Assembly: GCA_038062115.1 (NCBI GenBank)
Contig: JBBTXS010000001.1
Span: 10,607-74,606 of the forward strand
DNA: 64,000 nucleotides
Origin: Patescibacteria group bacterium
GTDB lineage: Bacteria; Patescibacteriota; Microgenomatia; Levybacterales; UBA12049
Direction of reading: 5' to 3'
The position numbers were made by a program, and so were the translations under genes. Below the pieces are notes generated by a model, which was given only the letters and a program-made list of their open reading frames with translations, did not search any database and had not been told where the DNA came from. Position 1 is the first letter of the stretch, and each line of letters starts with the position of its first letter. Shown piece by piece: positions 1 through 14,069 of the stretch.

Positions 1-701
1 GGCAAATGATACTGCGCACGATTGATCTTTTGGAGAACTTGAAGATTAGTCCTATAATTGTAGTAGTGGGGTTTGCGAAGAAATCAGTGACTGATCTTTT
101 GGGACAAAGAGTTGTCTTTGTGGATCAAAAGAAAAGGTTGGGTACTGCCCACGCTGTAAAATGTGCGTTAAAATATTTGCCTAGACATGTAACCGATGTT
201 CTAGTTTTAAATGGAGACGATTCGGCTTTTTACGAGGGGGAAACAATTATAAATCTGATTAAAGTTCACCAAAAGAAAAATACAGAGGTTACATTTCTAA
301 CTATTGAACTTGATAATCCATCCGGACTTGGTAGGATAATAAGGGACGATAAAGAACAACTTCTTGCGATTATCGAGGATAAAGATGCGTCTTTACAGCA
401 GAAAAAAATAGAGGAAATTAACCCAGGATGTTATTTGTTCAAGGTATCTTTTTTACGTAAATATTTAAGAAAAATTAAGAAGAGTAAAACAACAGACGAA
501 TACTATCTTACAAGACTTGTAGATATTGCTGCAGCAAATAATGAAAAGATAGAAACTTTAAGGGGAGGAAAAATCCCGTGGAGAGGGATAAATACGCCTT
601 TGGAATTAAAAGAAGCAGAAAGATTCTATTTTCAGCACTCCACCTCCGAGGAGTCGCTTCGCAACACCTCGGAGGTGACCGAATGGGCTCCTCCGAGGTG
701 A
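1..701 (+). CDS. Sugar-1-phosphate nucleotidylyltransferase domain protein (GlmU N-terminal-domain-like), probably 5'-partial at window edge
   Basis: ORF 6..701 has no in-frame stop before the window edge. It lacks the N-terminal glycine-rich loop expected for this fold and starts in the region equivalent to the first beta-alpha unit. LGTAHA and VLNGDD motifs are typical of NTP-transferase domains. The last ~21 codons (HSTSEESLRNTSEVTEWAPPR) are encoded by a palindromic repeat. Confidence 0.7.
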   Translation, partial: QMILRTIDLLENLKISPIIVVVGFAKKSVTDLLGQRVVFVDQKKRLGTAHAVKCALKYLPRHVTDVLVLNGDDSAFYEGETIINLIKVHQKKNTEVTFLTIELDNPSGLGRIIRDDKEQLLAIIEDKDASLQQKKIEEINPGCYLFKVSFLRKYLRKIKKSKTTDEYYLTRLVDIAAANNEKIETLRGGKIPWRGINTPLELKEAERFYFQHSTSEESLRNTSEVTEWAPPR

Positions 702-712
702 ACATCGGAGGA
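641..712. repeat. GC-rich double-hairpin palindromic element (MITE/REP-like)
   Basis: CACCTCCGAGG (641-651) pairs perfectly with CCTCGGAGGTG (667-677). TCCTCCG (689-695) pairs with CGGAGGA (706-712). The element is GC-rich in AT-rich DNA and sits between two ORFs. Confidence 0.6.
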
Positions 713-2060: not shown

Positions 2061-2085
2061 CTACAAATCCACCCCAAGGGTGGAC
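2061..2085. repeat. 25-nt repeat containing a 7-bp hairpin (copy 1 of 2)
   Basis: CTACAAATCCACCCCAAGGGTGGAC is identical to 10604-10628. The stem is TCCACCC/GGGTGGA at 2068-2084. It lies 11 nt after a stop codon. Confidence 0.7.
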
Positions 2086-2588: not shown

Positions 2589-3060
2589 ATATCTTGGTTT
2601 AGCTTTGTTTAGTGTATTCTTACTGGCAAGTGGATTTATCTATCAGGCATACTATCGTCCCGCTAGTATTGAAAGGATTAAGTCTACGGGTAAAGCAGTA
2701 TTTATTAACATGCGGGTCATAAAGAATCATTGGAAGTGGGATCCTGATACAATAAAAGTTAAACCTGGAGATAAGATAGTCCTAAACATTTATAACGAAG
2801 ACACATATGACCATGGGTTTGCAATAGATGTATTCGGGGTTAATCGCAGGTTATTTCCCCAAACTACAACTGTGGTTGAATTTACGCCTTCTTTGGTTGG
2901 CAAATTTAATTTTTATTGTTCAGTGCCCTGCGGAGAGGGTCATTATGACCAAATTGGTACTCTTATTGTGGGAGACGGACATGTTAGATCAGGTATATAT
3001 CCTAATAAGAACTTTGCATGTAGTACGACTAATAAAATGGTGCATTCTATGTCATTCTGA
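2581..3060 (+). CDS. Membrane-anchored cupredoxin-like copper-binding domain protein
   Basis: An N-terminal TM anchor is followed by a pattern typical of cupredoxin_1-type domains found next to Cu-ATPases: WDPDTIKVKPGDKIVLNIYNEDTYDHGF ... FYCSVPCGEGHYDQIGTLIV. The preferred start is ATG 2581 (the ORF track gives 2551). The C-terminal tail runs into a repeat element. Confidence 0.65.
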   Translation: MNKYLGLALFSVFLLASGFIYQAYYRPASIERIKSTGKAVFINMRVIKNHWKWDPDTIKVKPGDKIVLNIYNEDTYDHGFAIDVFGVNRRLFPQTTTVVEFTPSLVGKFNFYCSVPCGEGHYDQIGTLIVGDGHVRSGIYPNKNFACSTTNKMVHSMSF

Positions 3061-3101
3061 ACTTGATTCAGAATCTAGATTCCCGCTTTTGCGGGAATGA
3101 C
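3051..3101. repeat. GTCAT...ATGAC palindromic MITE-like element (short, two hairpins)
   Basis: Sequence: GTCATTCTGAA-CTTGA-TTCAGAATC-TAG-ATTCCCGC-TTTT-GCGGGAATGAC. The termini GTCATTC and GAATGAC are inverted. It sits between the cupredoxin gene and copA and supplies a spurious ATG at 3097. Confidence 0.65.
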
Positions 3102-3114
3102 GAAGGGTGTTTTT

Positions 3115-5571
3115 ATGAAAGAAAAGCCCCAATTTACTCAAAAACTCTATAGAATTCAGGGAATGCACTGCGCTTCCTGTGCTGTTTTAATTAACACAGT
3201 TCTACAAAAACAAAAAGGAGTAGAGTCTGTAAATGCAAGTTTTGGAGCTGAAAAACTTTCTATTTCATTTGATCCAAATGTTATACCCGAGGAAAAAGTA
3301 TTGGGTTTTGGTAAATCTTTGGGATACTCTTTTGTGTCGGAGGAGTCAAGAACTGAGGATGAATTTAAAAAAGAAAGGGATGCTCATATCAGAGAGCTTA
3401 GAAATAGAACTATTGTAAGTTTTCTTCTTTCAAGCCCTATTATTGCATATTATATGGCAGTTCACATGTTTAATCTTAAGCATGTCCACGCAATAATGGT
3501 TGGAAGTTTATTTATAGATTTAAACTGGATTTATTTACTAATGACAATTCCAGTTCAATTTTGGGTGGGATGGATTTTTTATAGAAGCGCCTGGACGGCA
3601 TTTAAGGTTGGTTCAACCTCGATGGACACGCTTGTAGTTTTGGGAACGAGTGCTGCATTTTTTTATAGTCTTATTGGCTTTCTGTTTTCAACTACCTATG
3701 GAAAGCTACAAACACTCTGGATAGGACTTGATCATCCTTTTTGGGAGTCATCTGCTGCTTTAATGTCGTTTTTAATTATGGGCCGCTTCCTTGAAGCTGT
3801 GTCTCGTGGAAAAGTTTCTGAGGCAGTAAGTAAATTGTTGCAGCTTGCACCAGAAAAAGCAATTTTACTTAAAAACGGTGAGGAAAAAGAAATTCTGGCG
3901 AGCGACTTAAAAAAAGACGATATATTTATTGTTAAGCCTGGAAGTAAAATTCCAACAGATGGAATAATTATTAAAGGCGAATCGGCATTGGACGAAAAAA
4001 TAGTAACAGGAGAATCAATGCCAGTCAATAAAAAAGTAAACGACGAAGTAATTGGGGGTACAGTAAATTCGTATGGATTGCTTCACTGTAAAGCAACTAA
4101 AGTTGGAAGCGAGACTTTACTACACCAAATAGTTAGAATGGTTCGCGAGGCTCAAGCAACAAGAGCACCGCTTCAACGCGTTGCAGACTGGATATCCGAA
4201 CGATTTGTGCCAACAGTTATAGTTTTAAGCCTTATCTCCTTTAACTATTGGTATTTTATAAAAGCAGACGGTTTTACTCCATCGCTTCTTTTTATGGTTG
4301 CAGCACTTATTATTTCTTGTCCATGTGCTTTGGGATTAGCAACTCCTATTGCTACTATGGTTGGTACAGCAAAAGGCGCTGAGTCTGGAATATTAATTAA
4401 AGGCGGAGAGGCTTTAGAAAAAGCGCATAAGATTACAGCGGTTGCGTTCGATAAGACAGGAACTTTAACAAAGGGAGAACCAGCTGTGACAGACGTCATT
4501 GCAATTAATTCCTCTGTCATTGCGAGGAGCGAAGCGACGAAGCAATCTCACGAGATTGCCACGGGTTCTTCGAGCCCTCGCAATGACATATTGAGGCTTG
4601 CTGCAGTTGCCGAGAGAGGTTCGGAACACCCCCTCGCTCAAGCTGTAGTTAAAAAAGCAAAAGAACTAAATTTAGAAGTTCCGGAGCCTGAAAACTTTAA
4701 AACAATTTCAGGGATGGGAGTTTCATCAGACTATAAAGGGAAACAAATTATGGTTGGGAATCAGCTTTTTATGGAGAAAGAAAGCATCAATATAAACGAG
4801 ATTGCTTCTGAGGTAAATAGACTTAGAGCTGAGGCAAAAACTGTGGTCTATGTTGCGTATGATAAAAAAGTTATTGGATGTGTTGCCCTTGCCGATACGC
4901 TCAAGAAACATTCTATTGCTGCGATAAATGCTCTAAAGAAGAGAAAAAAAGAAATAATTATGATTACTGGCGATAACGAACAGACTGCTCATGCAATTGG
5001 AAAGCAGTTGGGAATAGACAAGGTTTATGCCAATGTGTTGCCTGAGAAAAAAGAAGAACTTATTGAGTCTATTAAGAAAGAGGGTAAGGTAGTTGCTTTT
5101 GTTGGGGATGGGATAAATGATTCGCCAGCACTGGCCAAGAGTGACTTGGGTATTGCTGTTGGGTCTGGTACTGATGTTGCAATAGAGACTGGAGAAATAA
5201 TTCTTGTTCGCGATGATCTTCGAGATGTGGTTACAGCGATTGATCTTTCACAAAAGACAATCTATAAAATCTGGCAAAACTTTTTCTGGGCTTTTGTTTA
5301 TAATATAGTTGCGATTCCTATTGCTGCAGGACTGCATCTGGTATTTACTCGACACAGTGGGATTCCGGCGGGCTGGGTAACTTACCTCGGAGATGTTTAT
5401 TCTCTGATTCCAGTTATTGGCAATGAGGTTTCTTCTATTTGGCTAAATTTGTCCCAATCTGCTTTAAGGCCGGAAATCGCCGGATTTGCCATGGCATTTT
5501 CATCAGTCTCGGTTGTCCTCAACTCCCTTCTCCTTCGCCTCTACAAAAAACCAAAATTCGCGGATTCTTGA
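3115..5571 (+). CDS. copA: Copper-translocating P1B-type ATPase
   Basis: The protein carries an N-terminal HMA domain (GMHCASCA), the CPC motif (SCPCALGLATP), DKTGTLT, the HP motif (SEHPLA), TGDN and GDGINDSPAL. An SD-like AAGGG precedes ATG 3115. The ORF-track start at 3097 lies inside the repeat. Confidence 0.95.
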   Translation: MKEKPQFTQKLYRIQGMHCASCAVLINTVLQKQKGVESVNASFGAEKLSISFDPNVIPEEKVLGFGKSLGYSFVSEESRTEDEFKKERDAHIRELRNRTIVSFLLSSPIIAYYMAVHMFNLKHVHAIMVGSLFIDLNWIYLLMTIPVQFWVGWIFYRSAWTAFKVGSTSMDTLVVLGTSAAFFYSLIGFLFSTTYGKLQTLWIGLDHPFWESSAALMSFLIMGRFLEAVSRGKVSEAVSKLLQLAPEKAILLKNGEEKEILASDLKKDDIFIVKPGSKIPTDGIIIKGESALDEKIVTGESMPVNKKVNDEVIGGTVNSYGLLHCKATKVGSETLLHQIVRMVREAQATRAPLQRVADWISERFVPTVIVLSLISFNYWYFIKADGFTPSLLFMVAALIISCPCALGLATPIATMVGTAKGAESGILIKGGEALEKAHKITAVAFDKTGTLTKGEPAVTDVIAINSSVIARSEATKQSHEIATGSSSPRNDILRLAAVAERGSEHPLAQAVVKKAKELNLEVPEPENFKTISGMGVSSDYKGKQIMVGNQLFMEKESININEIASEVNRLRAEAKTVVYVAYDKKVIGCVALADTLKKHSIAAINALKKRKKEIIMITGDNEQTAHAIGKQLGIDKVYANVLPEKKEELIESIKKEGKVVAFVGDGINDSPALAKSDLGIAVGSGTDVAIETGEIILVRDDLRDVVTAIDLSQKTIYKIWQNFFWAFVYNIVAIPIAAGLHLVFTRHSGIPAGWVTYLGDVYSLIPVIGNEVSSIWLNLSQSALRPEIAGFAMAFSSVSVVLNSLLLRLYKKPKFADS
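4516..4587. repeat. GTCAT...ATGAC palindromic MITE-like element inserted in frame in copA
   Basis: The element is 72 nt (24 codons) with perfect 12-bp terminal inverted repeats GTCATTGCGAGG / CCTCGCAATGAC. An internal hairpin is GCAATCTC-AC-GAGATTGC. It encodes VIARSEATKQSHEIATGSSSPRND. Confidence 0.8.
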
Positions 5572-5611
5572 CAACCATGAGTCACGCCGTGTAGGTTAAC
5601 TGTTTTGTAAC

Positions 5612-5986
5612 ATGATTTTAAAGTCTAAAGACCGAGGAAAGTTTTTATCGCTTTTGCTAGCATTAAGCTTCTTTGGAATATTAGCAAGCGCGCCACAAGC
5701 AGTCGACCCTGATGTGATGTCGAGATTCCATGGTATGTTACCTGTATGGTATAGGTTATGGGTGACAATATACCTAGTTTCACAAATTGTAGTTCTTATC
5801 GGAATATGGAAGCGGAAAAGGTTTGCCGTATACGCATTTTTCCTTTTGAGCGGGATTCAGGTAGTGCTTATTAGTACCGCATTGAAACCAATTTACGATT
5901 CACATATCATTGCTATTGCTGTCTTTGCAATGTGGCAGGGTCTTTGGGTATGGGCAATCAAGCGTAAATGGCATATCTTTATTTAA
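5612..5986 (+). CDS. Hypothetical small membrane protein
   Basis: The ORF has four predicted hydrophobic helices and no motif I recognise. Confidence 0.4.
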   Translation: MILKSKDRGKFLSLLLALSFFGILASAPQAVDPDVMSRFHGMLPVWYRLWVTIYLVSQIVVLIGIWKRKRFAVYAFFLLSGIQVVLISTALKPIYDSHIIAIAVFAMWQGLWVWAIKRKWHIFI

Positions 5987-6174
5987 TAATTATGCATCTT
6001 TTAATAGCTCCTAGGTTTTGGGTTCACTATAGAACTAAAATTAATTTTAGTAAACATAATATGAATTATAGATGTTGTGTTTAAATATCAAAAAGGGTTT
6101 CGCGCAGATTTTGCTGGAGCAAAAATTGTGATGTTGTGTAAAGTTCTATATCATTTGAAAGGAATTTAAAAAAT

Positions 6175-6621
6175 ATGAGTAGTGAAAAATTTACATTATT
6201 ACACGCAGCGGTTTACTTTATGCTTATTAAAGATGGCAAAATACTTCTTGTTAGACGTTTTAATACTGGTTGGCAAGATGGAAAATATAGCCTTATCGCA
6301 GGACATCTTGAGAGGAATGAGACAGTTAAACAGGCAATGATAAGAGAAGCAAAAGAAGAAGCAGGAATTAATCTTAACCCAAAGGATTTACATATTGTAC
6401 ATACCATGCATAGGAAGTCTAAGGATGACCTTGAATATATTGATTTTTTCCTAAGTTGCGATACATGGCAAGGGAAGCCTAGGATAACAGAGCATGATAA
6501 ATGTGACGACATGCAATGGTTTTCTCTTAAAAACCTTCCTGAAGATACATTACGACACATAAGAAAAGCAATAGAAAGCTATTCAAATAAGATTTCATTT
6601 TCCGAGTTGGGTTTTGAATAA
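6175..6621 (+). CDS. NUDIX hydrolase
   Basis: The Nudix box is GHLERNETVKQAMIREAKEEAGI (GX5EX7REUXEEXGU). Confidence 0.85.
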   Translation: MSSEKFTLLHAAVYFMLIKDGKILLVRRFNTGWQDGKYSLIAGHLERNETVKQAMIREAKEEAGINLNPKDLHIVHTMHRKSKDDLEYIDFFLSCDTWQGKPRITEHDKCDDMQWFSLKNLPEDTLRHIRKAIESYSNKISFSELGFE

Positions 6622-6626
6622 TTAAT

Positions 6627-7109
6627 ATGCAAAGAAATATAGCTGTAGCGCTTGAGTGTTTTGTTAAAAAGGATGGAAAATACTTAATGCTTCATAGGAG
6701 TAAGAATAAGAAAATAATGCCAGATGTCTGGATGGCGCCTGGAGGAAAGAGAGAATTTAATGAAAGTTTGTTTGAGGCTGCTAGACGAGAGATTAAAGAG
6801 GAGACAGGACTTGAAATTAAAAATCTTCGAATCAAAGCAACGGGTAATGCGTATCTTAAAGATTTAGATCAAGAACTATATTTTCATTTTATAGTTGGTG
6901 ATTACGCTGGGGGAAAGCTCAAACAAAACTCTGAAGACGGAGAATTTATGTGGTTAACGCCTAAAGAAATATCAAAACTTAACAATCTACTTTCGGAAAT
7001 TCGTGAAGTTATGCCTTATATTTTTACTAATGATGACAAGGTCATTTCTTACAAGGCAGTATACGAAAAAGGAAATAAAATGGTCGACTTCCAAATTGAA
7101 AAACCTTAA
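6627..7109 (+). CDS. NUDIX hydrolase (second, tandem)
   Basis: The Nudix box is PGGKREFNESLFEAARREIKEETGL. Confidence 0.85.
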   Translation: MQRNIAVALECFVKKDGKYLMLHRSKNKKIMPDVWMAPGGKREFNESLFEAARREIKEETGLEIKNLRIKATGNAYLKDLDQELYFHFIVGDYAGGKLKQNSEDGEFMWLTPKEISKLNNLLSEIREVMPYIFTNDDKVISYKAVYEKGNKMVDFQIEKP

Positions 7110-7321
7110 AACCTGAGTCGTGAAATCTTCTCAAACACACTTGCCTTTATATGTTTCATAAATGTCAATTGCGACAACAGCCATACGCAACCTATTCCTA
7201 ATCCGAGGGTTATCGTTTGTAAAACATTTTGGAAAAAGTAACAGTTATTCATGGTTCTAAAACAGATATTAGCAATCTTTAAATAGTTTATCAAGTATCA
7301 ATTTTTTTTATTTTTTGAGGG

Positions 7322-7354
7322 TTGACAAAGAGGATAAAAGAGTTCTACTATAAT
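7322..7354 (+). promoter_or_regulatory. Sigma70-like promoter candidate for copZ operon
   Basis: TTGACA lies at 7322-7327. The -10 candidates are TACTAT (7346-7351, 18-nt spacer) and TATAAT (7349-7354, 21-nt spacer). A T-rich tract lies upstream. The ATG at 7363 has no SD, so the transcript may be leaderless. Confidence 0.4.
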
Positions 7355-7362
7355 TATGTAAG

Positions 7363-7584
7363 ATGCCAATAATTACAAAAAAAGCTCTTAATATAGAAGG
7401 CATGCATTGCAATTCCTGCGCATCGGGGATTCAGCTGGTTTTGCAAAACACAGACGGCGTTTTGAATGCAACTGCCAGTTATGATTCCAAAAAAGGCGAA
7501 GTTGAGTTTGACGAGGAAAAAACGAATTTGGAGAACATTGTTAAGTCAATCGAGCAACTGGGATATAAGGCGACGCCGCAGTAA
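7363..7584 (+). CDS. copZ: Heavy-metal-associated (HMA) copper chaperone
   Basis: A 73-aa protein with the GMHCNSCA metal-binding motif and ferredoxin-like HMA length. Confidence 0.85.
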   Translation: MPIITKKALNIEGMHCNSCASGIQLVLQNTDGVLNATASYDSKKGEVEFDEEKTNLENIVKSIEQLGYKATPQ

Positions 7585-7593
7585 ATGCGCGTT

Positions 7594-7669
7594 GTCATGC
7601 TGAATTTATTTCAGCATCTTGAAATAAGTAAAGGACTGCATCTAGACTCTGAAACAAGTTCAGGGTGAC
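7594..7669. repeat. GTCAT...GTGAC palindromic MITE-like element
   Basis: The termini are GTCATGCTGAA (left) and TTCAGGGTGAC (right), matching 9 of 11 as inverted repeats. Hairpins are ATGCTGAA-TTTA-TTCAGCAT and CTGAA-ACAAG-TTCAG. It is intergenic. Confidence 0.65.
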
Positions 7670-7685
7670 ACAAAGAGGATAAGTT

Positions 7686-8000
7686 ATGAAGTCTTTATTA
7701 AGTTTTTTCTCAACCACTAGTTTGTTGTTATTAACGCTTGCGGAGCCTGCTTTTGCAAATGGAGACAGTCACCCACCAGGAACTCCACACACAGAGGAAG
7801 CAACAAGTATAGATCCCGTAATAGTTGTTGGTATTGCAATAGTTTTGGTAATTGGCGGTTTTATACTTTGGAAATTTGTTCTTCATGGTCCTAAATCATC
7901 TTTACCTAATCAATTATCCTCGTCTGAAAAAACGCCACCTGTTCAGGAAAAAAATGTTTCTCAGAGCAATCTGGGTGATAATCCTCCAAAGAATGGATAG
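7686..8000 (+). CDS. Signal-peptide plus single-TM anchored protein with short His/Pro-rich ectodomain
   Basis: The ORF has a signal-like N-terminus ending AFA-NG, then GDSHPPGTPHTEE, a TM helix and a low-complexity tail. An SD (AGAGGA) lies 7 nt upstream. Confidence 0.5.
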   Translation: MKSLLSFFSTTSLLLLTLAEPAFANGDSHPPGTPHTEEATSIDPVIVVGIAIVLVIGGFILWKFVLHGPKSSLPNQLSSSEKTPPVQEKNVSQSNLGDNPPKNG

Positions 8001-8002
8001 AT

Positions 8003-10072
8003 ATGGATGAGACAACTGCCAATGTCCCTGCGCAAGCTCCTGTAGAGAATAAAGTTCCTGTTGTTCCTGGAAAAAAACATCCACCTTTGTTGTTTCTTAT
8101 TCTGCTTTTCGGTTTAATAGGTATATTTATTTATGGGTTGAGGTTTGTATTTTCTTTAGGTAGCGGGGATGTAGGCTCTGTTCCTTTTCTTCTTTTTGAC
8201 TATACGGTTGGACTTACAATGATTTTTCTTCCCTGCACTCTGCCGCTTGCCTTTGTTATCGTGCCACTTGTGATGGGTAAGTCGTACCAGAAAGGAATTG
8301 GCATGGCTTTGGCATTTGGATTGGGGGTAACTATTACTCTTAGTTTCTATGGGGTGCTTATTGGATTGTTGGGTCAGGCGCTTGGAATCCACCAAGTTGA
8401 GACTGCAAAAAATATTTTGTATGCGGTAGCAGGTCTATTTGCAATTCTTTTTGCTCTGGGAGAGCTTAAGCTTATTCGTTTTGCAGCTCCTGTTTATGGG
8501 GGTGCTGTTCCACAATTTATCATGAAACAAAAAGATATTGCAAAAGCGTTATTTCTTGGTCTTTTTTTGGGAAATGTAGGAGTAGGCTGTCCGAATCCTC
8601 TTTTTAACGCAGTAATTATTCCTCAGATCATTGCTACAGGCGATGCTTTCCAAGGGTGGCTCATTATGTTTGTGCAGGCGCTTGGACGTATCACTCCACT
8701 TTTTATCCTTGCGTTTCTTGCAATTTTGGGGATCAATGCGACTCGATTTCTTGTTCTTCACAAAGATGCGGTTAGTAGGATTACAGCTTGGTCTACAATT
8801 TATATTGGTGGATTTTTGCTTACCCTTGGACTTTTTGGACACGATTGGTGGGTCATCTCGGGAATGCATACTTTTGTAGAGTTTGTGACTCAAGAAAACT
8901 TTGTCACAAATCTTCTTGGGAGCAAGGTCCAAGAACTTGGACATACTCACGGGATTCCAACTGGAGCAGGATTATTCGGCATGCCTATTGCTTTGGGAAC
9001 CCCATTTATCCTTTTTATCTGGATCTTTCCAATGGTTTGGTACTATCTGTTCAAAAAAAAGAGCATCATTACACTTCCTCCCGAGCAGCAAGCGTTTGAG
9101 AAAAGATATACACGTCTTATTGGCTGGTTTTTTGTAGTCGTGTCGCTTTGGCTCATAACGGTTTTTGGATATTTTCTTCCCCATATGTTTGCAGATCATT
9201 GGTCCAAAATGGGGCATGAGGGGGAGGAAATAGATCATATGATGAAAGAGAAGACAGTAGAAAAGCAAGATTTTCATGCAACACTTTCAAGCACTCCATC
9301 GGCAATTCAAGCTGCTAAACCATTTACACTTAAGGTTGTTCTGCATGATAAACGCGGCAGACCAGTTAACGATTTACAGATATCTCATGAAAGAATTTTG
9401 CACGTAATTTTGGTAAGCGAAGACATGGAAGAGTTTAAGCATGTTCATCCAGAAGATGCAAAAAATTATGTAGCAAAAACTGGACAGACTGAATTTGAAA
9501 TTCCTATAACTCTTTCAAAAGCCGGGCGTTACAGAGTTCTGGTTGATGGATCTAGAAAAGGAGTAGGGGAGGTATCCGATCTTGGGTGGCTTGAGGTTGG
9601 AATTGTCGGAGATAGCGTGGGAGAACCAGTTCTTATAAAGAAAGATCGTCGTCTAAATCGAATATTTGGAGAATATGATGTTTCACTAGTGCCGACTCCT
9701 CACAATGCTCTTAGATCAGGAGAGAAAACACAATTAAGCTATTTTATTAGAGATAGAGAAACTGGCAACCCAATCTTTGATATAGAACAATATCTTGGCG
9801 CTGACATGCATCTTGCGATTATGTCTATTGATTTATCTACTATTCTTCATACTCATGGAGCAAGATGGGAGCCAAAGTTGGGGCCAAATCAAGGTGTCGC
9901 GTTTCCAGAGATCCGAGCAAACTACACTTTTCCCTATCCAGGGCTTTGGAAAATCTACGGACAATTCCAGCATAAAGGCAAAGTTGTGACGACTGAGTTT
10001 ATGGTGGAGGTTGCGCCGGGCATAATGGATGCTCAAAACATGGCTCCGCATATGGATGACAATGGGCATTAG
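8003..10072 (+). CDS. Fusion protein: CcdA/DsbD-like thiol-disulfide transporter core plus two tandem His-motif beta-sandwich-like domains
   Basis: The CcdA-like signatures are FLPCTLPL and GVGCPNPLF in TM helices. The C-terminal ~270 aa contain two repeats of the pattern HxxLxS.D...F.H.H (ILHVILVSEDMEEFKHVHPED and MHLAIMSIDLSTILHTHG). Confidence 0.6.
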   Translation: MDETTANVPAQAPVENKVPVVPGKKHPPLLFLILLFGLIGIFIYGLRFVFSLGSGDVGSVPFLLFDYTVGLTMIFLPCTLPLAFVIVPLVMGKSYQKGIGMALAFGLGVTITLSFYGVLIGLLGQALGIHQVETAKNILYAVAGLFAILFALGELKLIRFAAPVYGGAVPQFIMKQKDIAKALFLGLFLGNVGVGCPNPLFNAVIIPQIIATGDAFQGWLIMFVQALGRITPLFILAFLAILGINATRFLVLHKDAVSRITAWSTIYIGGFLLTLGLFGHDWWVISGMHTFVEFVTQENFVTNLLGSKVQELGHTHGIPTGAGLFGMPIALGTPFILFIWIFPMVWYYLFKKKSIITLPPEQQAFEKRYTRLIGWFFVVVSLWLITVFGYFLPHMFADHWSKMGHEGEEIDHMMKEKTVEKQDFHATLSSTPSAIQAAKPFTLKVVLHDKRGRPVNDLQISHERILHVILVSEDMEEFKHVHPEDAKNYVAKTGQTEFEIPITLSKAGRYRVLVDGSRKGVGEVSDLGWLEVGIVGDSVGEPVLIKKDRRLNRIFGEYDVSLVPTPHNALRSGEKTQLSYFIRDRETGNPIFDIEQYLGADMHLAIMSIDLSTILHTHGARWEPKLGPNQGVAFPEIRANYTFPYPGLWKIYGQFQHKGKVVTTEFMVEVAPGIMDAQNMAPHMDDNGH

Positions 10073-10090
10073 TAACGTACCTTACGCACT

Positions 10091-10188
10091 GTCATCCCGA
10101 GCGAAGCCAGGTACCGTCTGGCACCTGGCGAAGCGAGGGATCTCCCGCAACTAGGGTGAGAGAGATTTCTCGACAAGCTCGAAATGAC
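10091..10188. repeat. GTCAT...ATGAC palindromic MITE-like element
   Basis: The element is 98 nt, running GTCATCCCGAGCGAAGC ... CTCGAAATGAC, with an internal stem CCAGGT/ACCTGG. It is GC-rich and intergenic. Confidence 0.65.
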
Positions 10189-10219
10189 AAAGGTTGCGTA
10201 ACATGAGTTAGTAATTATG

Positions 10220-10305
10220 TTATTCTTCGAGCGAGGCTGAAAGCCGAGTCGAGAAGTTCTACCTTCAAGATAGTTCTCGACTCACTTCGTTCGCTCGAAC
10301 AATAA
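10220..10305. repeat. Second-type palindromic MITE-like element
   Basis: The ~17-nt near-perfect terminal inverted repeats are TTATTCTTCGAGCGAGG and (as reverse complement) TTATTGTTCGAGCGAAC. An internal 10-bp stem pairs GAGTCGAGAA (10246-10255) with TTCTCGACTC (10274-10283). Confidence 0.65.
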
Positions 10306-10312
10306 AACTTAT

Positions 10313-10579
10313 ATGGGTAAGAATATTACTATTCAGCTTGTATCCACTCCAGGTTGTACTCATTGCGAGGAGGTACGAAAAGTACTGCATGAAGTGAAAT
10401 CGCAGTATCCGCAAATGCAGATACAAGAACTCGATGCAACAAATCCGGACGGATTAGAACTTGTCGCCAAGCATGGTATTTTGGCAAGCCCTGGAGTTAT
10501 CATTAACGGAGAGCTTTTCGCAACAGGAGGGCTTAATAAAGACAGTTTTATTAAAAAATTAGCCTCTCTAAAAAATTAA
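10313..10579 (+). CDS. Small thioredoxin/glutaredoxin-like protein (CxxC)
   Basis: An 88-aa protein with a PGCTHCEE active-site-like motif near the N-terminus, in the size class of single-domain thioredoxin-fold proteins. Confidence 0.7.
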   Translation: MGKNITIQLVSTPGCTHCEEVRKVLHEVKSQYPQMQIQELDATNPDGLELVAKHGILASPGVIINGELFATGGLNKDSFIKKLASLKN

Positions 10580-10603
10580 CCGCTCATTTCTCCGCAGGTG
10601 TAG

Positions 10604-10645
10604 CTACAAATCCACCCCAAGGGTGGACCGTCCCAAGTGGGGACG
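10604..10645. repeat. 25-nt repeat (copy 2 of 2) plus an adjacent second hairpin
   Basis: 10604-10628 is identical to 2061-2085. Hairpin 1 is at 10611-10627. Hairpin 2 is CGTCCC-AAGTG-GGGACG at 10629-10645. Confidence 0.7.
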
Positions 10646-10677
10646 TTCGTACGACAGAGTTTGTATTTGTATATGGC

Positions 10678-11712
10678 TTGTTTGAGGAGTATAATAAACT
10701 TATGGCAATTCTGCTGGGGCTAACACTTCTTTCTTGTTTTATTACTGCTATTCTTATTATTCCCTTTATAGACTTTTTATACAAAATACGGCTTAGACGT
10801 CAAAAGCAAAAGACAGTTGATATGTTTAATAAGCCAACACCAGTGTTTGATAAGCACAATAACTGGAAAGTTGGTACACCTTTTGGTGGAGGAATACTTA
10901 TTGTAAGCGTTGTATCCATATTAACTCTTTGGGCTTATGGAATATTAAGCATAGATGTTAAAATATGGCAGGTATTTGTAATTTTGTTTACATTTGTGGG
11001 CTTTGGGCTTTTAGGTCTTTACGATGATGCAAAGAAGTTAGTCAATGGAAAAAAATCTTCGTTTTTTGGCTTAAGATTTAGGCACAAATTTATACTTCAG
11101 TGGATTTTGGCATTTATTGTAGCAATTATTTTATATACACAGCTTGGATACGATTTTGTGTTTATCCGTGGATTTGGCTTAGCCGACCTTGGGTTTTTAT
11201 TTGTTCCATTCGCAACGTTCGTAATTGTTGCTTTTGCTAACGCCTTTAATATTGCAGATGGACTAGATGGATTAGCATCAGGACTACTTTTAATTTGCCT
11301 GGTTGCATTTTTGGTGATTACCGCAAACCAATTAGATCAGCCCCTTGGCATTTTTATAGCTATTCTTATGGGAAGTATTTCTGCTTTCTTGTATTTCAAC
11401 ATTTACAAGGCAAGAATTTGGCTTGGTGACGTTGGAGCACTTTCTCTTGGGGCGGTTTTAGGGTTAATAGGGCTTTTGACTGGTAAAACTGTTGCCCTTG
11501 CATTTATTGGAGGTGTGTTTGTGTTGGAAGTTGCTTCGTCCTTAATTCAGATTTGCTCCAAGAAATTTTTAGGCAAAAAGGTATTTCCGGCTTCTCCTTT
11601 GCACTTGCTTTTGCTGCGTATTGGTTGGGATGAGCCAAAAATAGTAATGAGAGCGTGGATACTTGGTTTTTTATTTGCAGTTTTAGGACTTTACATAGCC
11701 TTCATCAGATAA
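10678..11712 (+). CDS. mraY: Phospho-N-acetylmuramoyl-pentapeptide transferase
   Basis: The NAFNIADGLDGLA motif, a polytopic profile and dcw context support the call. 10678 is a TTG codon. ATG 10702, with GAGGAG upstream, is the more likely start. Confidence 0.9.
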   Translation: MFEEYNKLMAILLGLTLLSCFITAILIIPFIDFLYKIRLRRQKQKTVDMFNKPTPVFDKHNNWKVGTPFGGGILIVSVVSILTLWAYGILSIDVKIWQVFVILFTFVGFGLLGLYDDAKKLVNGKKSSFFGLRFRHKFILQWILAFIVAIILYTQLGYDFVFIRGFGLADLGFLFVPFATFVIVAFANAFNIADGLDGLASGLLLICLVAFLVITANQLDQPLGIFIAILMGSISAFLYFNIYKARIWLGDVGALSLGAVLGLIGLLTGKTVALAFIGGVFVLEVASSLIQICSKKFLGKKVFPASPLHLLLLRIGWDEPKIVMRAWILGFLFAVLGLYIAFIR

Positions 11713-11737
11713 TAAACCCTTCATAACTCAAAACAGT

Positions 11738-12805
11738 ATGAAAAAAGTAGATTTTATTCTTTTAGCAACAGTTGTTTTTCTAACTCTTTTTGGGTTTTTC
11801 ATGATATACGATGCTTCTTCGTATGTTGCCTTTCGCGATTTTTCCGATAAATATCATTACGTTAAAGATCAATTTGTTTGGGTAGTGCTTGGTTTTACAG
11901 GACTGATTTTCTTTTCTTATTTTAATTACCATAGGCTTTATAACCTTTCTTTGCCTCTACTTTTTATAGCCATAGTTTTGTTAGTTTTAGTATTTGTTCC
12001 GGGAATTGGTGTCTATTTGTTAGGCGCACGTCGTTGGGTGGACTTTAAAATATTTTTATTGCAGCCCGCGGAGTTTGTAAAATTGGCTCTTGCTATCTAT
12101 CTTTCTGCTTGGTTTGCCAACAAAGAGAAAGGAAGGCTCATGGCATTTCTCATGCTTCTAGGCTTAGTCCTTTTTTTAATAGTTATTCAGCCTGATATGG
12201 GAACTGCTGTTGTTATACTTTGTGAAGCCATGTTAATATATTTTTTGTCGGGCGGTAATGTATTATATTTTGCAATTTTAATGCCGATAATATCAATACT
12301 TGGGATGTTTTTAATTAAACTATCGCCCTATAGAGCAAAAAGGCTTGAAGCATTTTTGAATGTCAATCAATCTATAGAGAGTAGCTCCTATCATGTTAAA
12401 CAGATACTAATTGCATTAGGATCCGGAGGAATTACAGGGGTCGGGCTTGGGAACAGTTTGCAAAAATACGCTTACCTTCCCGAAACGACAACTGATTCAA
12501 TATTTGCCATTATTGCGGAGGAACTTGGTTTTGTAGGCGCAACCTGCATTATAATTTTGTTTATTATAATAGTCTGGAGGGGTTTTAATATAGCAAGTCT
12601 TGCAAAAGATGACTTTGGCAAGCTTTTGGCAACAGGCATCACAACGTTTTTAGCAGTCCAAACAATTATTAATTTAGGAGCTCTTGTCTCTCTTTTCCCC
12701 CTAACTGGAATTCCTCTTCCTTTTATTTCGTACGGAGGATCAGCTCTTATTATTGACCTTTGTTCTATTGGGATACTTTTGAATATTTCTAAGAATAGTT
12801 CATAG
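11738..12805 (+). CDS. ftsW: SEDS-family cell-division peptidoglycan polymerase
   Basis: The protein shows SEDS hallmarks (QPAEFVKLAL, PDMGTA, LPETTTDSIFA, PLPFISYGGS) and lies between mraY and murG. Confidence 0.85.
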   Translation: MKKVDFILLATVVFLTLFGFFMIYDASSYVAFRDFSDKYHYVKDQFVWVVLGFTGLIFFSYFNYHRLYNLSLPLLFIAIVLLVLVFVPGIGVYLLGARRWVDFKIFLLQPAEFVKLALAIYLSAWFANKEKGRLMAFLMLLGLVLFLIVIQPDMGTAVVILCEAMLIYFLSGGNVLYFAILMPIISILGMFLIKLSPYRAKRLEAFLNVNQSIESSSYHVKQILIALGSGGITGVGLGNSLQKYAYLPETTTDSIFAIIAEELGFVGATCIIILFIIIVWRGFNIASLAKDDFGKLLATGITTFLAVQTIINLGALVSLFPLTGIPLPFISYGGSALIIDLCSIGILLNISKNSS

Positions 12806-12812
12806 AGTTTAT

Positions 12813-12892
12813 GTCATTGCGAGCGTGAGCGAAGCAATCCCCTTCTTTTTGAGATTGCTTCGTCTCAGGCTTCGCCTGATCCTCGCAATGAC
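12813..12892. repeat. GTCAT...ATGAC palindromic MITE-like element
   Basis: The element is 80 nt with 11-bp perfect terminal inverted repeats GTCATTGCGAG / CTCGCAATGAC. It lies in the ftsW-murG spacer and is read through by the GTG-initiated ORF-track extension. Confidence 0.75.
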
Positions 12893-12914
12893 AATAGAAC
12901 AGTTTAGAGTTTAT

Positions 12915-14069
12915 ATGAAAATAGTAATTGTTGGTGGTCATTTGGCTCCAGCGTTAGCGGCAATAGACAATTTACCTAAAGATACAAAACTTCTGTTTAT
13001 TGGAAGAAAATATACTTTTGAAGGAGACAAAGCTTTGTCTTTGGAGTATAGAGAGATTACTAAACGCAAGGTCCCGTTTACAAATGTCATAAGCGGAAGG
13101 CTTCAGAGAAGGCTCACTCGCCATACAATCCCTTCACTTATAAAAGTTCCATATGGATTCATTCAGTCTTTTTTTATCTTGCAAAAGTTTAAGCCAGATG
13201 TGTTTTTAGGTTTTGGTGGGTATTTATCTTTACCTCTTGGTTTAGCAGCTTTTATTTTAAGAATCCCGATTGTTATTCACGAGCAAACATTAGAAGCAGG
13301 TATTGCGAATAAGATTCTTTCGTTTTTTGCTAAAAAGATCTGTATTTCATGGGAATCATCAAGAAAATTTTTTCCAAAAAATAAAACTGTTCTTATTGGA
13401 AACCCGATACGAAAATTTTCTCTGTCATCCCGACCAAGCCCGAAGGGCGCGTGGAGGAATCTCGGAGATTCCTCGACTCCGTTTCACTTCGCTCGGAATG
13501 ACACCCCTATTATTTACATCACTGGTGGGAGTTCTGGCTCGCACTTTATAAATACACTGGTTGAGGGCTGTATCAAAGAGCTATTGGAAAAGTTCGTCAT
13601 TATTCACCAAACAGGAGATGCGCAAGAATACCGTGACTTTGACCGACTTAACAATCTTAGAGATAGTCTACCATCAAAATTAAAAGCAAGATACTTTCTG
13701 ATAAAATTTGTTGAACCGAAAGACGTTGGATCATGTTTACAAAAAGCGCATTTAGTAGTTTCACGCGCTGGTATAAATACTATAACAGAGCTTATTTTTT
13801 TAAAAAAGCCATCTTTGTTGATTCCTCTGCGTTATTCCCAAAATAACGAACAAATAAAGAATGCCCTTTTTTTAAAAAGCCTAGGGCTTGGGGAAGTTTT
13901 GGAACAAGGCCATTTAAGCTCGCAAAAGTTTTTGCAAAAAGTAATAGAGATGGTTAATAATATAAATAAGTATAAGATTAAAGATAAATCTAATGCTTTA
14001 ATCAATAAAAATGCTGCCCAAAAGATAATTGAAGTCATTCAATATGCTACAAAGAGCAAGAAAAACTAA
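12915..14069 (+). CDS. murG: UDP-GlcNAc:lipid I N-acetylglucosaminyltransferase
   Basis: MKIVIVGGHLAP, HEQT, GNPIR and TGGSSGS motifs of the GT28 MurG fold, plus dcw position, support the call. The start moves to ATG 12915 because the 12825 extension is repeat-encoded. Confidence 0.9.
   Translation: MKIVIVGGHLAPALAAIDNLPKDTKLLFIGRKYTFEGDKALSLEYREITKRKVPFTNVISGRLQRRLTRHTIPSLIKVPYGFIQSFFILQKFKPDVFLGFGGYLSLPLGLAAFILRIPIVIHEQTLEAGIANKILSFFAKKICISWESSRKFFPKNKTVLIGNPIRKFSLSSRPSPKGAWRNLGDSSTPFHFARNDTPIIYITGGSSGSHFINTLVEGCIKELLEKFVIIHQTGDAQEYRDFDRLNNLRDSLPSKLKARYFLIKFVEPKDVGSCLQKAHLVVSRAGINTITELIFLKKPSLLIPLRYSQNNEQIKNALFLKSLGLGEVLEQGHLSSQKFLQKVIEMVNNINKYKIKDKSNALINKNAAQKIIEVIQYATKSKKN
13424..13502. 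repeat. GTCAT...ATGAC palindromic MITE-like element embedded in frame in murG
   Basis: The element runs GTCATCCCGACC ... CTCGGAATGAC with an internal 10-bp palindrome GAGGAATCTC/GAGATTCCTC. It encodes roughly SSRPSPKGAWRNLGDSSTPFHFARND in the interdomain linker. Confidence 0.7.

What the first reader, a model, noticed from the sequence alone, without database searches (positions are those of the whole stretch)
3051..13502. Family of GC-rich GTCAT...ATGAC palindromic MITE/RPE-like elements concentrated in the first 13.5 kb
I read at least seven copies with GTCAT-type inverted termini, and an eighth related double hairpin lies at 641-712:
- 3051-3101, 4516-4587, 7594-7669, 10091-10188, 12813-12892 and 13424-13502 are GTCAT-type.
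- 10220-10305 is a second type with TTATTSTTCGAGCGA termini.

Subtypes are visible. GTCATTGCGAG...CTCGCAATGAC occurs at 4516 and 12813. GTCATCCCGA...CTCGRAATGAC occurs at 10091 and 13424. GTCATKCTGAA hairpins occur at 3051 and 7594.

The elements are 51-98 nt, strongly self-complementary and free of stops in several frames. They sit at gene boundaries, where they create false N-terminal extensions for copA and murG and odd C-terminal tails for two ORFs, or inside genes.

No transposase is present in the window. I did not see copies between about 13.6 and 63.8 kb.
Basis: seen in the sequence. Interest (0 to 1): 0.7.

Follow-up and report, generated by a model that had tools for sequence, protein, structure and literature searches.

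The report
Hairpin repeats of the Ssn nuclease
The GC-rich palindromes are real and belong to a family described in 2025, hairpin DNA repeats cut by small "Ssn" nucleases; here they sit in a tiny groundwater bacterium, between genes and twice in frame inside essential genes.

Summary
Seven of the eight claimed elements are related, strongly self-complementary and confined to 3-13.5 kb. The eighth, at 641-712, is only loosely related.

Each element is a head-to-head pair of short units. A unit reads GTC, then a hairpin whose stem starts AT and ends AT, then C. That is the anatomy of the NTS/SRM repeats that GIY-YIG "Ssn" nucleases bind and cut as single-stranded DNA (Chenal et al. 2025).

- The unit at 3075-3102(-) matches the Neisseria NTS at 27 of 28 positions.
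- The GTCATTGCGAG type flanks ssn genes on both sides in 51 of 73 metagenome loci, so the window's doublets look like gene-less versions of a ~400-nt unit-ssn-unit element.
- One such ssn element lies on another contig of the same MAG.
- Syntenic relatives have empty sites, or a different subtype, at the same places. This includes the same codon site of copA and the same loop of murG.

These are therefore not classical MITEs or REPs but new members of a known kind. Most units escape the published search pattern, and in-frame insertion is uncommon for this family. How they spread is still unknown.

The parts
3051..3101 (.). E1, a doublet between the cupredoxin gene and copA. The left unit is 3051-3075(+), GTC|ATTCTGAA-CTTG-ATTCAGAAT|C. 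The right unit is 3075-3102(-), CGTCATTCCCGCAAAAGCGGGAATCTAG. The two share a central CTAG.
   Evidence: The right unit is the only true hit of the published SRM pattern in the window (shuffles average 0.05). It matches the NTS CGTCATTCCCGCGMAVGCGGGAATCYRG at 27 of 28 positions and contains a dRS3 motif, ATTCCC-N8-GGGAAT. DNA fold z is -6.6 for the doublet, -5.9 for the right unit and -3.7 for the left unit. The stop of ORF 2551-3060 and the first ATG of the copA ORF (3097) lie inside it.
4516..4587 (.). E2, a type-A doublet (GTCATTGCGAG...CTCGCAATGAC) of 72 nt, equal to 24 codons, in frame inside copA (residues 474-497 of ORF 3097-5571). It lies between the DKTGT phosphorylation motif and the nucleotide-binding domain.
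   Evidence: DNA fold z is -6.2. The PDB alignment of CopA shows about 20 extra residues here relative to HMA4. The syntenic relative L216 carries a different 60-nt doublet at the same codon site, also in frame.
7594..7669 (.). E3, a doublet of two TCTGAA/GCTGAA-type units, 7594-7618(+) and 7641-7669(-, GTCAC variant with one stem mismatch), separated by a 22-nt spacer. It lies between the small HMA gene and the next ORF.
   Evidence: doublet z -3.3; left unit z -5.9. The orthologous spacer is empty in L216 and L217. The same 25-nt unit occurs in 60 IMG/VR stretches and in Sphingomonadales.
10091..10188 (.). E4, a CCCGAG/TTCGAG-type doublet between the DsbD-like gene and the thioredoxin gene. 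The left unit, 10091-10142(+), carries a nested hairpin at 10106-10128. The right unit is 10164-10188(-).
   Evidence: (z -3.1). The orthologous spacer is 30 nt and empty in L217, and holds one doublet in L216. The nested ACCGTCTGG hairpin and the outer TTACGCA arms recur in L300 and L216.
10220..10305 (.). E5, a variant doublet with GTT instead of GTC at both ends (G-TTATTCTTCGAGCGA...TCGCTCGAACAATAA-AAC). It is probably a decayed relative.
   Evidence: DNA fold z is -5.7. It is significantly similar to E7. Its inner GGCTGAAAGCC hairpin also occurs in a GTCAT unit of L216. It lacks the GTC that determines cleavage in PMC11893778.
12813..12892 (.). E6, a type-A doublet between ftsW and murG, with units 12813-12839(+) and 12853-12892(-).
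   Evidence: It has the strongest fold, z -7.6. It is identical in the independent assemblies L001 and L002. In L217, ftsW and murG overlap (ATGA) with no element. In L216 a different (GCTGAA-type) doublet occupies the junction. The long murG ORF that starts at GTG 12825 is an artefact; the called start is 12915.
13424..13502 (.). E7, a CCCGAC/TCCGAG-type doublet inside murG (residues about 171-196 of the gene that starts at 12915), read through in frame.
   Evidence: It has a close paralogue at an intergenic site of the same MAG (L300 12036-12109). P0002/L216 carries the same insert. Other homologues carry other unit-derived inserts or none. The only pLDDT<50 segment of the AlphaFold model is residues 171-189. 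The fold is weak, z -1.5.
641..712 (.). E0, a double hairpin (CACCTCCGAGG...CCTCGGAGGTG, then CCTCCGAGG...CGGAGG) at the junction of the two halves of a split glmU-like gene. Membership of the family is unproven.
   Evidence: DNA fold z is -5.6. It has no significant similarity to E1-E7 and no other copy in any fetched locus. It shares the GCGAAGCGAC mini-hairpin core with type-A units.

Best explanation
The elements are Ssn-related hairpin repeats, the NTS/SRM family that includes the Neisseria dRS3/NTS.

Anatomy. The basic unit is 25-50 nt: GTC, then a hairpin whose basal stem starts AT... and ends ...AT, then C. Two units in inverted orientation, separated by a short variable spacer, make the 51-98 nt GTCAT...ATGAC palindromes.

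What is established elsewhere. In Neisseria and Wolbachia, small single-domain GIY-YIG nucleases (Ssn, about 95 aa) bind such a unit only as single-stranded DNA. They cut a few nucleotides upstream of GTC.

What is shown here:
- The unit frame is present in 12 of the 14 units of E1-E7. The exceptions are the two GTT-ended units of E5.
- One unit is a near-exact NTS.
- The GTCATTGCGAG type brackets ssn genes, so the window's doublets have the layout of gene-less derivatives of a ~400-nt unit-ssn-unit element.
- The same MAG encodes such an ssn element.
- Related genomes have empty sites, or other subtypes, at the same places.
- Two copies are read through in frame, at a loop of CopA and a loop of MurG. 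The MurG loop is modelled at low confidence; CopA was not modelled.

What is inferred:
- The genome's Ssn recognises these units whenever the DNA is single-stranded, for example during replication, repair or DNA uptake.
- As in Neisseria, this restricts recombination of incoming DNA around the flanked copper-homeostasis and cell-division genes.
- The doublets were spread in trans by an Ssn-dependent, non-DDE route that leaves no target duplication.
- Only in-frame, stop-free insertions in permissive loops survive selection inside genes.
For: Unit frame. All units of E1-E4, E6 and E7 have GTC directly 5' of the stem and C directly 3'. PMC11893778 identifies exactly these positions as the cleavage determinant and the key binding determinant.

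Match to the known repeat. 3075-3102(-) fits the published SRM pattern and equals the NTS but for one loop base.

Link to ssn genes:
- 51 of 73 ssn loci from metagenomes have GTCATTGCGA about 57 nt upstream and TCGCAATGAC about 42 nt downstream, in convergent orientation. The same motif occurs in 17 of 832 control windows.
- The same layout holds in Ca. Woesebacteria (L209) and in L071. Both proteins match PF01541.
- P0241, a 99-aa GIY-YIG protein flanked by type-A units, is on contig CAYIBY010000012.1 of GCA_964361775.1. That is the assembly that also holds the window's genes.

Unit structure. Across 814 type-A units the inner segment is a co-varying hairpin. The commonest form is GCGNAGC with all four N. 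It folds better than shuffles, Wilcoxon p 7e-31.

Breadth. The other types hit 60 and 33 IMG/VR stretches.

Insertion polymorphism. Sites are empty, filled or differently filled in the syntenic loci L216, L217 and L218. The murG loop is a hotspot among 120 homologues.

The insert in MurG is the only very-low-confidence segment of the model.
Against: - Only one of the window's units fits the published SRM pattern. The link to Ssn is direct for the TGCGAG and TCCCGC types, rests on a single locus for the GCTGAA type (L361), and is missing for the CCCGAG type.
- Single type-A units do not fold better than shuffles with nearest-neighbour DNA energies, z +1.4 and -0.7.
- PMC11893778 reports that changing the stem sequence abolishes SsnA activity. 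One Ssn is therefore unlikely to serve four stem types, and only one ssn gene of this genome was found.
- Assignment of the ssn contig to the same organism rests on metagenomic binning.
- No cleavage, mobility or transformation data exist for this organism.
- NTS repeats are rarely intragenic in Neisseria (2%), whereas two of the seven here are.
- The relatives compared share only about 69% MurG identity, so presence or absence could reflect loss as well as gain.
Confidence: 0.8

Rival explanations
1. They are REP/REPIN-type elements, mobilised and maintained by a RAYT (an HUH Y1 transposase of the IS200/IS605 superfamily).
For: The layout is very similar: a short 5' tag plus a hairpin, and inverted doublets that form one long hairpin, as in REPINs and BIMEs. 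There is no target duplication, and action at the single-strand level is likely. PMC11893778 itself draws the analogy.
Against: The tag is GTC-AT, not GTAG. The gene bracketed by the units is a GIY-YIG nuclease in 51 of 73 loci. No Y1 transposase appears among the window's genes or among recurrent neighbours of 233 copies. REP sequences are species-specific, whereas these are near-identical across phyla.
Confidence: 0.04
2. They are classical MITEs: internally deleted copies of a DDE-transposase insertion sequence, moved by cut-and-paste through their terminal inverted repeats.
For: They are short, non-coding and dispersed, with perfect inverted termini (GTCAT...ATGAC) and presence/absence differences between relatives. 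A longer, gene-carrying form exists with the same ends.
Against: There is no consistent target-site duplication at E1-E7; only E6 has an imperfect ~20-nt flanking repeat. The longer form encodes a 96-99 aa GIY-YIG nuclease, not a DDE transposase. The whole element is a palindrome built from autonomous hairpin units, not just its termini.
Confidence: 0.04
3. They act mainly at the RNA level, as transcription terminators, mRNA stabilisers, RNase III sites or small RNAs, and are conserved for that reason.
For: They are stable hairpins at gene ends (E1, E3, E4, E5, E6). REP, ERIC and Correia elements have such side-effects (PMC10969869). The RNA-parameter MFEs are very low.
Against: There is no Rfam match. 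No T-run follows any element, and none is called terminator-like. Two copies lie inside coding regions. The GCGNAGC core with a free N is the classic stable DNA mini-hairpin (own knowledge). SsnA binds neither RNA nor duplex DNA. Such effects could still exist as by-products.
Confidence: 0.07
4. They are inert relics of past invasions that the present-day nuclease no longer recognises, persisting only because deletion is slow or harmful inside genes.
For: E7 folds poorly (z -1.5). E5 has lost GTC. E3's right unit has GTCAC and a stem mismatch. Four stem types coexist but only one ssn gene is known in the MAG. The murG insert is shared with a relative whose MurG is only 69% identical, so that insert is old.
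Against: Twelve of the 14 units of E1-E7 keep both the GTC and the 3' C. E2 and E6 have intact type-A ends identical to those flanking the genome's own ssn. Independent subtypes occupy the same sites in relatives.
Confidence: 0.2

Closest known systems
NTS / Ssn-related motifs (SRM) and the Ssn GIY-YIG single-strand nucleases (Chenal et al. 2025, PMC11893778)
   Same: The unit frame is the same: GTC, hairpin, C. One unit equals the NTS at 27 of 28 positions. The units bracket small single-domain GIY-YIG genes (unit-ssn-unit). They are dispersed in clusters around particular genes and occur across many phyla.
   Different: Most units here (TGCGAG, CCCGAG and KCTGAA stems, some with an inner second hairpin or nested inserts) do not fit the published degenerate pattern. 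They occur almost only as inverted doublets. Two of seven are in frame inside essential genes, against 2% intragenic in N. meningitidis. The host is a Patescibacteria (CPR) genome, a group the paper does not mention.
Neisseria dRS3 repeats and intergenic mosaic elements (NIMEs)
   Same: Unit 3078-3101 contains ATTCCC-N8-GGGAAT. Short blocks are bounded by inverted copies of the repeat.
   Different: There are no long mosaic arrays here. The spacers are 4-25 nt rather than 50-150-bp RS blocks. (Features of NIMEs are from my own knowledge and.)
REP / BIME / REPIN elements with RAYT transposases
   Same: A conserved short 5' tag plus a hairpin, inverted doublets that fold into one long hairpin, a single partner gene flanked by the repeats, and no target duplication.
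   Different: The tag is GTC rather than GTAG. The partner is a hydrolytic GIY-YIG nuclease rather than an HUH Y1 transposase. The sequence is conserved across phyla rather than being species-specific.
Rickettsia palindromic elements (RPEs)
   Same: They are palindromic selfish DNA inserted in frame into unrelated housekeeping genes, where they add a tolerated peptide loop (PMC10969869).
   Different: RPEs are about 100-150 bp and were described only in Rickettsia. Sequence relatedness was not tested here. PMC11893778 lists Rickettsia among SRM-rich genera, and type-A doublets occur in Rickettsiales contigs (L144, L154), so a link is possible but unproven.

Membership tests
Ssn-related motif (SRM/NTS) repeats | The trinucleotide GTC lies immediately 5' of the palindrome (the cleavage determinant). 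| tested here: met
   It is present in 12 of the 14 units of E1-E7. It is absent (GTT) in both units of E5 (criterion).
Ssn-related motif (SRM/NTS) repeats | A cytosine lies immediately 3' of the palindrome (the key binding determinant). | tested here: met
   Every unit of E1-E4, E6 and E7 ends ...AT|C or ...GT|C.
Ssn-related motif (SRM/NTS) repeats | A 20-50 nt semi-palindrome that folds as a single-stranded DNA hairpin. | tested here: inconclusive
   The result is clear for three simple-stem units, the TCCCGC, TCTGAA and GCTGAA types (z -5.9, -3.7, -5.9). The GTCAC variant unit of E3 does not fold better than shuffles (z -0.5). Single type-A units also do not beat shuffles (z +1.4, -0.7). 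Their inner segment, however, is a co-varying hairpin across 814 units.
Ssn-related motif (SRM/NTS) repeats | A match to the published search pattern HGTCWYN(0-2)YYVSBRHN(0-5)WNVSBRGN(0-2)RNCYNB. | tested here: not met
   Only 3075-3102(-) matches. There is one further, probably chance, hit at 46239, and the shuffle mean is 0.05. The pattern was built by hand from 29 genomes, so failing it does not exclude membership.
Ssn-related motif (SRM/NTS) repeats | The units flank a cd10448-type single-domain GIY-YIG gene (unit-ssn-unit). | tested here: met
   For type A, 51 of 73 loci have units on both sides, as do L209, L071 and L300. The TCCCGC type is covered by the paper. The GCTGAA type rests on one locus (L361). 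The CCCGAG type has no direct evidence. CDD itself could not be searched; PF01541 is matched.
Ssn-related motif (SRM/NTS) repeats | An Ssn homologue is encoded in the same genome. | tested here: met
   P0241 lies on GCA_964361775.1 contig CAYIBY010000012.1, and the window's genes lie on contig CAYIBY010000007.1 of the same assembly. The caveat is that this is a binned MAG.
Ssn-related motif (SRM/NTS) repeats | Specific binding and cleavage of the single-stranded unit by the cognate Ssn. | not testable with these tools
   This needs purified protein and oligonucleotides.
REP/REPIN-RAYT | A conserved GTAG tetranucleotide 5' of the hairpin. | tested here: not met
   The tag is GTC followed by AT. 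The criterion is from my own knowledge of the REP literature.
REP/REPIN-RAYT | A Y1 (HUH) transposase gene flanked by the repeats. | tested here: not met
   No such gene is in the window or among the recurrent neighbours of 233 copies. The flanked gene is GIY-YIG. The rest of the genome was not searched.
Classical MITE (DDE-derived) | A fixed-length target-site duplication. | tested here: not met
   The flanks of E1-E5 and E7 share no direct repeat. Only E6 has an imperfect ~20-nt one.
Classical MITE (DDE-derived) | A parent insertion sequence with the same termini that encodes a transposase. | tested here: not met
   The gene-carrying form encodes a 96-99 aa GIY-YIG nuclease.
Rickettsia palindromic elements | In-frame insertion into protein-coding genes without a stop codon. 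| tested here: met
   E2 adds 24 codons to copA, and E7 is read through in murG.
Rickettsia palindromic elements | Sequence similarity to an RPE family consensus. | not tested

The most novel reading that the evidence does not exclude
The ~400-nt unit-ssn-unit module may be a minimal autonomous mobile element of a new mechanistic class. Its only gene would be a ~97-aa hydrolytic GIY-YIG single-strand nuclease. It would move itself and its gene-less doublets through single-stranded hairpin intermediates, without a covalent transposase and without target duplication. On this reading it hops between phyla and repeatedly seeds new peptide loops in essential proteins of reduced genomes such as the CPR.
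Probability: 0.4. Interest if true: 0.75.

Novelty: new member of a known kind. Interest (0 to 1): 0.45.

Why it matters
- It ties a very common kind of "junk" seen in metagenomes to a defined enzyme-repeat system. That junk is the GC-rich GTCAT hairpins, which give spurious ORFs and odd peptide tails.
- It shows that the published search pattern misses most of the family's diversity.
- It gives a concrete, testable pair, P0241 and the window's units, in a CPR genome.
- The recurrent in-frame insertions at the same loops of CopA and MurG, with different subtypes in related genomes, offer a natural experiment on how such elements choose or survive at sites.
- If Ssn really drives their spread, this would be a transposition route not yet described.
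- In practice, annotators should mask these units before calling starts and stops.

Tried and rejected
- Rfam at gathering thresholds found only one tRNA.
- Literature searches for CPR palindromic elements, and for the peptides the repeats encode (RFARND, VIPAKAGIQ), found nothing useful. Searching for the DNA words found the Ssn paper.
- Clustering the ORFs within 1.5 kb of 233 type-A copies gave only spurious element-encoded ORFs and phage or GTA-like genes. No partner gene emerged, because most copies are far from any ssn. A tblastn search with GIY-YIG sequences recalled from memory then found two loci.
- The published SRM pattern recovers only one unit.
- The generic inverted-repeat finder missed most elements because their arms are interrupted.
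- A profile search for Ssn in the window, L216 and L217 was negative.
I got round this through a homology search.
- The paper's supplements are not held.
- The terminator scan found none at the elements.
- I considered and dropped a primase-recognition idea based on the GCGAAGC hairpin of phage G4 origins: the conserved trinucleotide is GTC, not CTG (own reasoning).
- I looked for target-site duplications at every element and found none that is consistent.
Full report
**Source and setting.** The window is AT-rich: 34% G+C overall, 36-42% over most of the first 20 kb, and 26-39% (mostly about 30%) beyond 24 kb. Its genes are found identically in a Patescibacteria MAG from Hainich groundwater (GCA_964361775.1, contig CAYIBY010000007.1) and on a 375-kb ENA contig.

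The first 20 kb encodes:
- a glmU-like pair of ORFs;
- copper-homeostasis genes (cupredoxin, CopA, an HMA protein, a DsbD-like protein, thioredoxin);
- the division and cell-wall genes mraY, ftsW, murG, ftsA and ftsZ.

The rest is mostly a glycosylation and polysaccharide gene block.

- As single-stranded DNA, seven of them fold better than nearly all dinucleotide shuffles, with z from -3.1 to -7.6. The murG copy is weak, z -1.5.
- In a 90-nt sliding fold the four strongest hairpins of the 64 kb are all claimed elements. Nothing comparable lies beyond 19.5 kb.
- GTCAT...ATGAC pairs are six-fold over shuffles.
- A simple structural descriptor finds 13 units against 1.6 expected. Eleven are inside the claimed elements, and the two outside look like chance.
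- The clustering in 13 kb has a probability of about 1e-4 under uniform placement.
- The element at 641-712 is not significantly similar to any other.

**Anatomy.** Each element is a pair of units in inverted orientation, not one palindrome. A unit is GTC, then a hairpin whose stem begins AT (once AC) and ends AT (once GT), then C. It is usually followed by TC or TAG. Four stem types occur:

| Stem type | Elements |
|---|---|
| ATTGC...GCAAT ("type A") | E2, E6 |
| ATYCC/ATTTC with a GAGC...CGAG interior | E4, E7 |
| AT(T/G)CTGAA...TTCAG(A/C)AT | E1 left, E3 |
| ATTCCCGC...GCGGGAAT | E1 right |

Units of different types can be paired, as in E1. A unit loop can hold a nested hairpin, as in E4 (10106-10128).

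**Identification.** A full-text search for the DNA words led to Chenal et al. 2025 (PMC11893778). They describe the following:
- The Neisseria NTS is CGTCATTCCCGCGMAVGCGGGAATCYRG, which includes the older dRS3 repeat.
- Small single-domain GIY-YIG nucleases (Ssn, cd10448) bind it only as single-stranded DNA and cut a few nucleotides upstream.
- The three bases before the palindrome control cleavage.
- The C right after the palindrome is the most important base for binding.
- ssn genes are typically flanked by such repeats.
- In N. meningitidis the pair lowers integration of transforming DNA that carries the repeat.

My independent reading of the unit (GTC | hairpin | C) coincides with those determinants. 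The unit at 3075-3102(-) equals the NTS except for one loop base. It is the only real hit of their degenerate SRM pattern in the window.

**Are the other types also Ssn repeats?** For type A, yes.
- The pattern GTCATTGCGAG-N30-60-CTCGCAATGAC hits 92 stretches in IMG/VR.
- The genomes hit include Bradyrhizobium, sphingomonads, Rickettsiales, Gamma- and Deltaproteobacteria, Bacteroidota, Chloroflexota, Cyanobacteria, Planctomycetota, Nitrospirae and CPR groups.
- Two of these loci carry a ~97-aa GIY-YIG gene that sits between type-A units: L209, from Ca. Woesebacteria, and L071.
- Starting from the protein side, 80 metagenome loci encoding close relatives were fetched. Of the 73 with enough flank, 51 have a type-A unit on both sides in convergent orientation and 16 on one side. 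The motif occurs in 2% of control windows.

The gene-carrying form is thus unit - about 15-30 nt - ssn - a few nt - inverted unit, roughly 400 nt in all. The window's E2 and E6 have exactly this layout with the gene replaced by a short spacer.

Across 814 type-A units the segment between GTCATTGCGA and GCAATC is itself a small hairpin. It is most often GCGNAGC with all four N, and otherwise unrelated sequences with perfect stems. It folds better than its shuffles, p 7e-31. That is covariation at the level of the single unit.

For the GCTGAA type I found one ssn gene with such units directly downstream (L361). For the CCCGAG type I found none. Both types are nevertheless widespread, with 60 and 33 IMG/VR stretches.

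**The partner gene in this genome.** One of the metagenome ssn loci came from the same aquifer (L227). Its protein, P0241 (99 aa, catalytic motifs intact), is encoded on contig CAYIBY010000012.1 of the same MAG, among housekeeping genes, and is flanked by type-A units.

That 20-kb locus holds five more elements. They include a close paralogue of the murG insert E7 at an intergenic site and an NTS-type doublet.

**Evidence for insertion.** Three syntenic relatives were recovered through MurG homologues.

| Site | Window | L216 | L217 |
|---|---|---|---|
| DsbD-thioredoxin spacer | E4 and E5 | one doublet | 30 nt, empty |
| ftsW-murG junction | type-A doublet (E6) | GCTGAA-type doublet with a nested insert and a duplicated end | genes overlap, no element |
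| Spacer after the HMA gene | E3 | empty | empty |
| copA codon site | 72-nt type-A doublet, in frame | different 60-nt doublet, in frame | not in the fetched locus |

At the ftsW-murG junction, L218 carries an unrelated AT-rich repeat.

In murG, the loop between GNPxRKF and LPIIYITGGS is 17-22 residues in most of 120 homologues. It is expanded in about a dozen, with peptides that derive from at least five different unit combinations. The window and P0002 share one of them.

No consistent target duplication is seen. In this lineage the base before GTCAT is usually T and the base after ATGAC is usually A. In G+C-rich hosts they are C and G.

**Consequences for the proteins.**
- E2 adds 24 residues after the DKTGT motif of CopA, where solved homologues have a short linker.
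- E7 adds about 26 residues to MurG. In an AlphaFold model (mean pLDDT 84.5) the only segment below 50 is residues 171-189, inside the insert, with no secondary structure.

Both findings fit tolerated surface loops, as proposed for RPEs.

**Mechanism: shown and inferred.**

Shown:
- the family identity of the units;
- the bracket layout around ssn;
- an ssn element in the same MAG;
- site polymorphism among relatives;
- in-frame read-through.

Taken from the literature: recognition and cleavage of the unit as single-stranded DNA only, and the effect on transformation in Neisseria.

Inferred:
- This genome's Ssn acts on these units.
- In a doublet, each strand carries one cleavable unit, with the cut just outside the element.
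- This marks the flanked copper-homeostasis and division genes for restriction of incoming single-stranded DNA.
- The doublets were spread in trans.

How a purely hydrolytic nuclease could copy the element is unknown. The inverted arrangement means a single strand carries only one cleavable end, so an IS608-like same-strand excision does not fit.

**Rivals.**
- REP/RAYT: wrong tag, wrong partner gene, and wrong conservation pattern.
- Classical MITE: no target duplication and no DDE parent.
- RNA elements: no Rfam hit, no T-runs, intragenic copies, and a DNA-type mini-hairpin core. By-product effects on transcripts remain possible.
- Inert relics: a real possibility for E5, E7 and part of E3, less so for E2 and E6.

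**Novelty.** The kind is known since 2025. What is new here:
- the host group, since CPR is not mentioned in the paper;
- unit types that the published pattern does not catch;
- the explicit doublet-as-gene-less-derivative relationship, with numbers;
- recurrent in-frame insertion at the same loops of two essential proteins.

I rate it a new member of a known kind, of moderate interest.

Noticed in passing
window 6-1374 (junction at 641-712): A glmU-like gene is split exactly at E0. ORF 6-701 matches the uridyltransferase half of GlmU (chain residues about 40-253). ORF 712-1374 matches the hexapeptide acetyltransferase half (about 285-436). The two ORFs are in different frames. E0 supplies the tail and stop of the first ORF, and a GGAGG followed by ATG (707-714) for the second.
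   Followed up: partly
window 10082-10090 and 10195-10205; L300 951 and 19259; L216 3227 and 11439: A conserved outer arm, (A)CTCATGTTACGCA, lies 2-9 nt upstream of GTCAT at several elements in this lineage, on both sides of E4. This suggests a larger composite element, or a conserved region where Ssn would cut.
   Followed up: partly
window 10106-10128; L300 about 8770-8790; L216 about 7618-7640: A small hairpin with the loop ACCGTCTGG is nested inside the loops of different units in three loci, as if it were a separate tiny insert.
   Followed up: no
window 2069-2083 and 10612-10643: The hairpin CCACCCCAAGGGTGG, preceded by AAAT, occurs twice, each time just downstream of a stop codon. The second copy is followed by another hairpin, GTCCCAAGTGGGGAC. 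It could be a different small repeat or a terminator-like signal.
   Followed up: no
window 12794-12812 and 12893-12914: E6 is flanked by an imperfect ~20-nt direct repeat (AATAGTTCATAGAGTTTAT / AATAGAACAGTTTAGAGTTTAT). No other element has one. In L216 the 3' end of the doublet at the same junction, plus its flank, is tandemly duplicated.
   Followed up: partly
window 4495-4502: GTCATTGC, the first 8 nt of E2, also occurs 21 nt upstream within the native copA codons D-V-I-A. L216 has GTTGTTGC there. It could be coincidence, or a hint of homology-guided insertion.
   Followed up: no
MurG homologues P0001-P0120 (loop after GNPxRKF): Besides GTCAT-unit peptides, many homologues carry other repeat-like peptides in this loop (ASRRSGQ, SPRGEAG, KFQISNFQFSI). 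The loop may be a general sink for small palindromic DNA. The DsbD-thioredoxin spacers of L216 and L217 contain a similar TTTCAATTTGAAATT motif.
   Followed up: no
P0121-P0345: The Ssn-type proteins are 60-80% identical between CPR groups, cyanobacteria, Deltaproteobacteria, Elusimicrobia and others, and at least 8000 clusters were hit. Type-A doublets also occur on IMG/VR contigs next to portal, terminase or GTA-like genes. Both points suggest frequent transfer between phyla.
   Followed up: partly
window 24000-64000: This part is a low-G+C block (26-39%, mostly about 30%) of glycosyltransferases, methyltransferases, sugar epimerases and two large ORFs with no Pfam match (55582-57561, 57571-59424). 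It carries no element at all, in contrast with the first 13.5 kb.
   Followed up: partly
window 3097-3117 and 12825-12914: Start-codon artefacts. The deposited copA call begins at the ATG inside E1 (3097), but a second ATG at 3115 preceded by GAAGGGTG is a more plausible start. The longest murG ORF starts at a GTG inside E6.
   Followed up: partly
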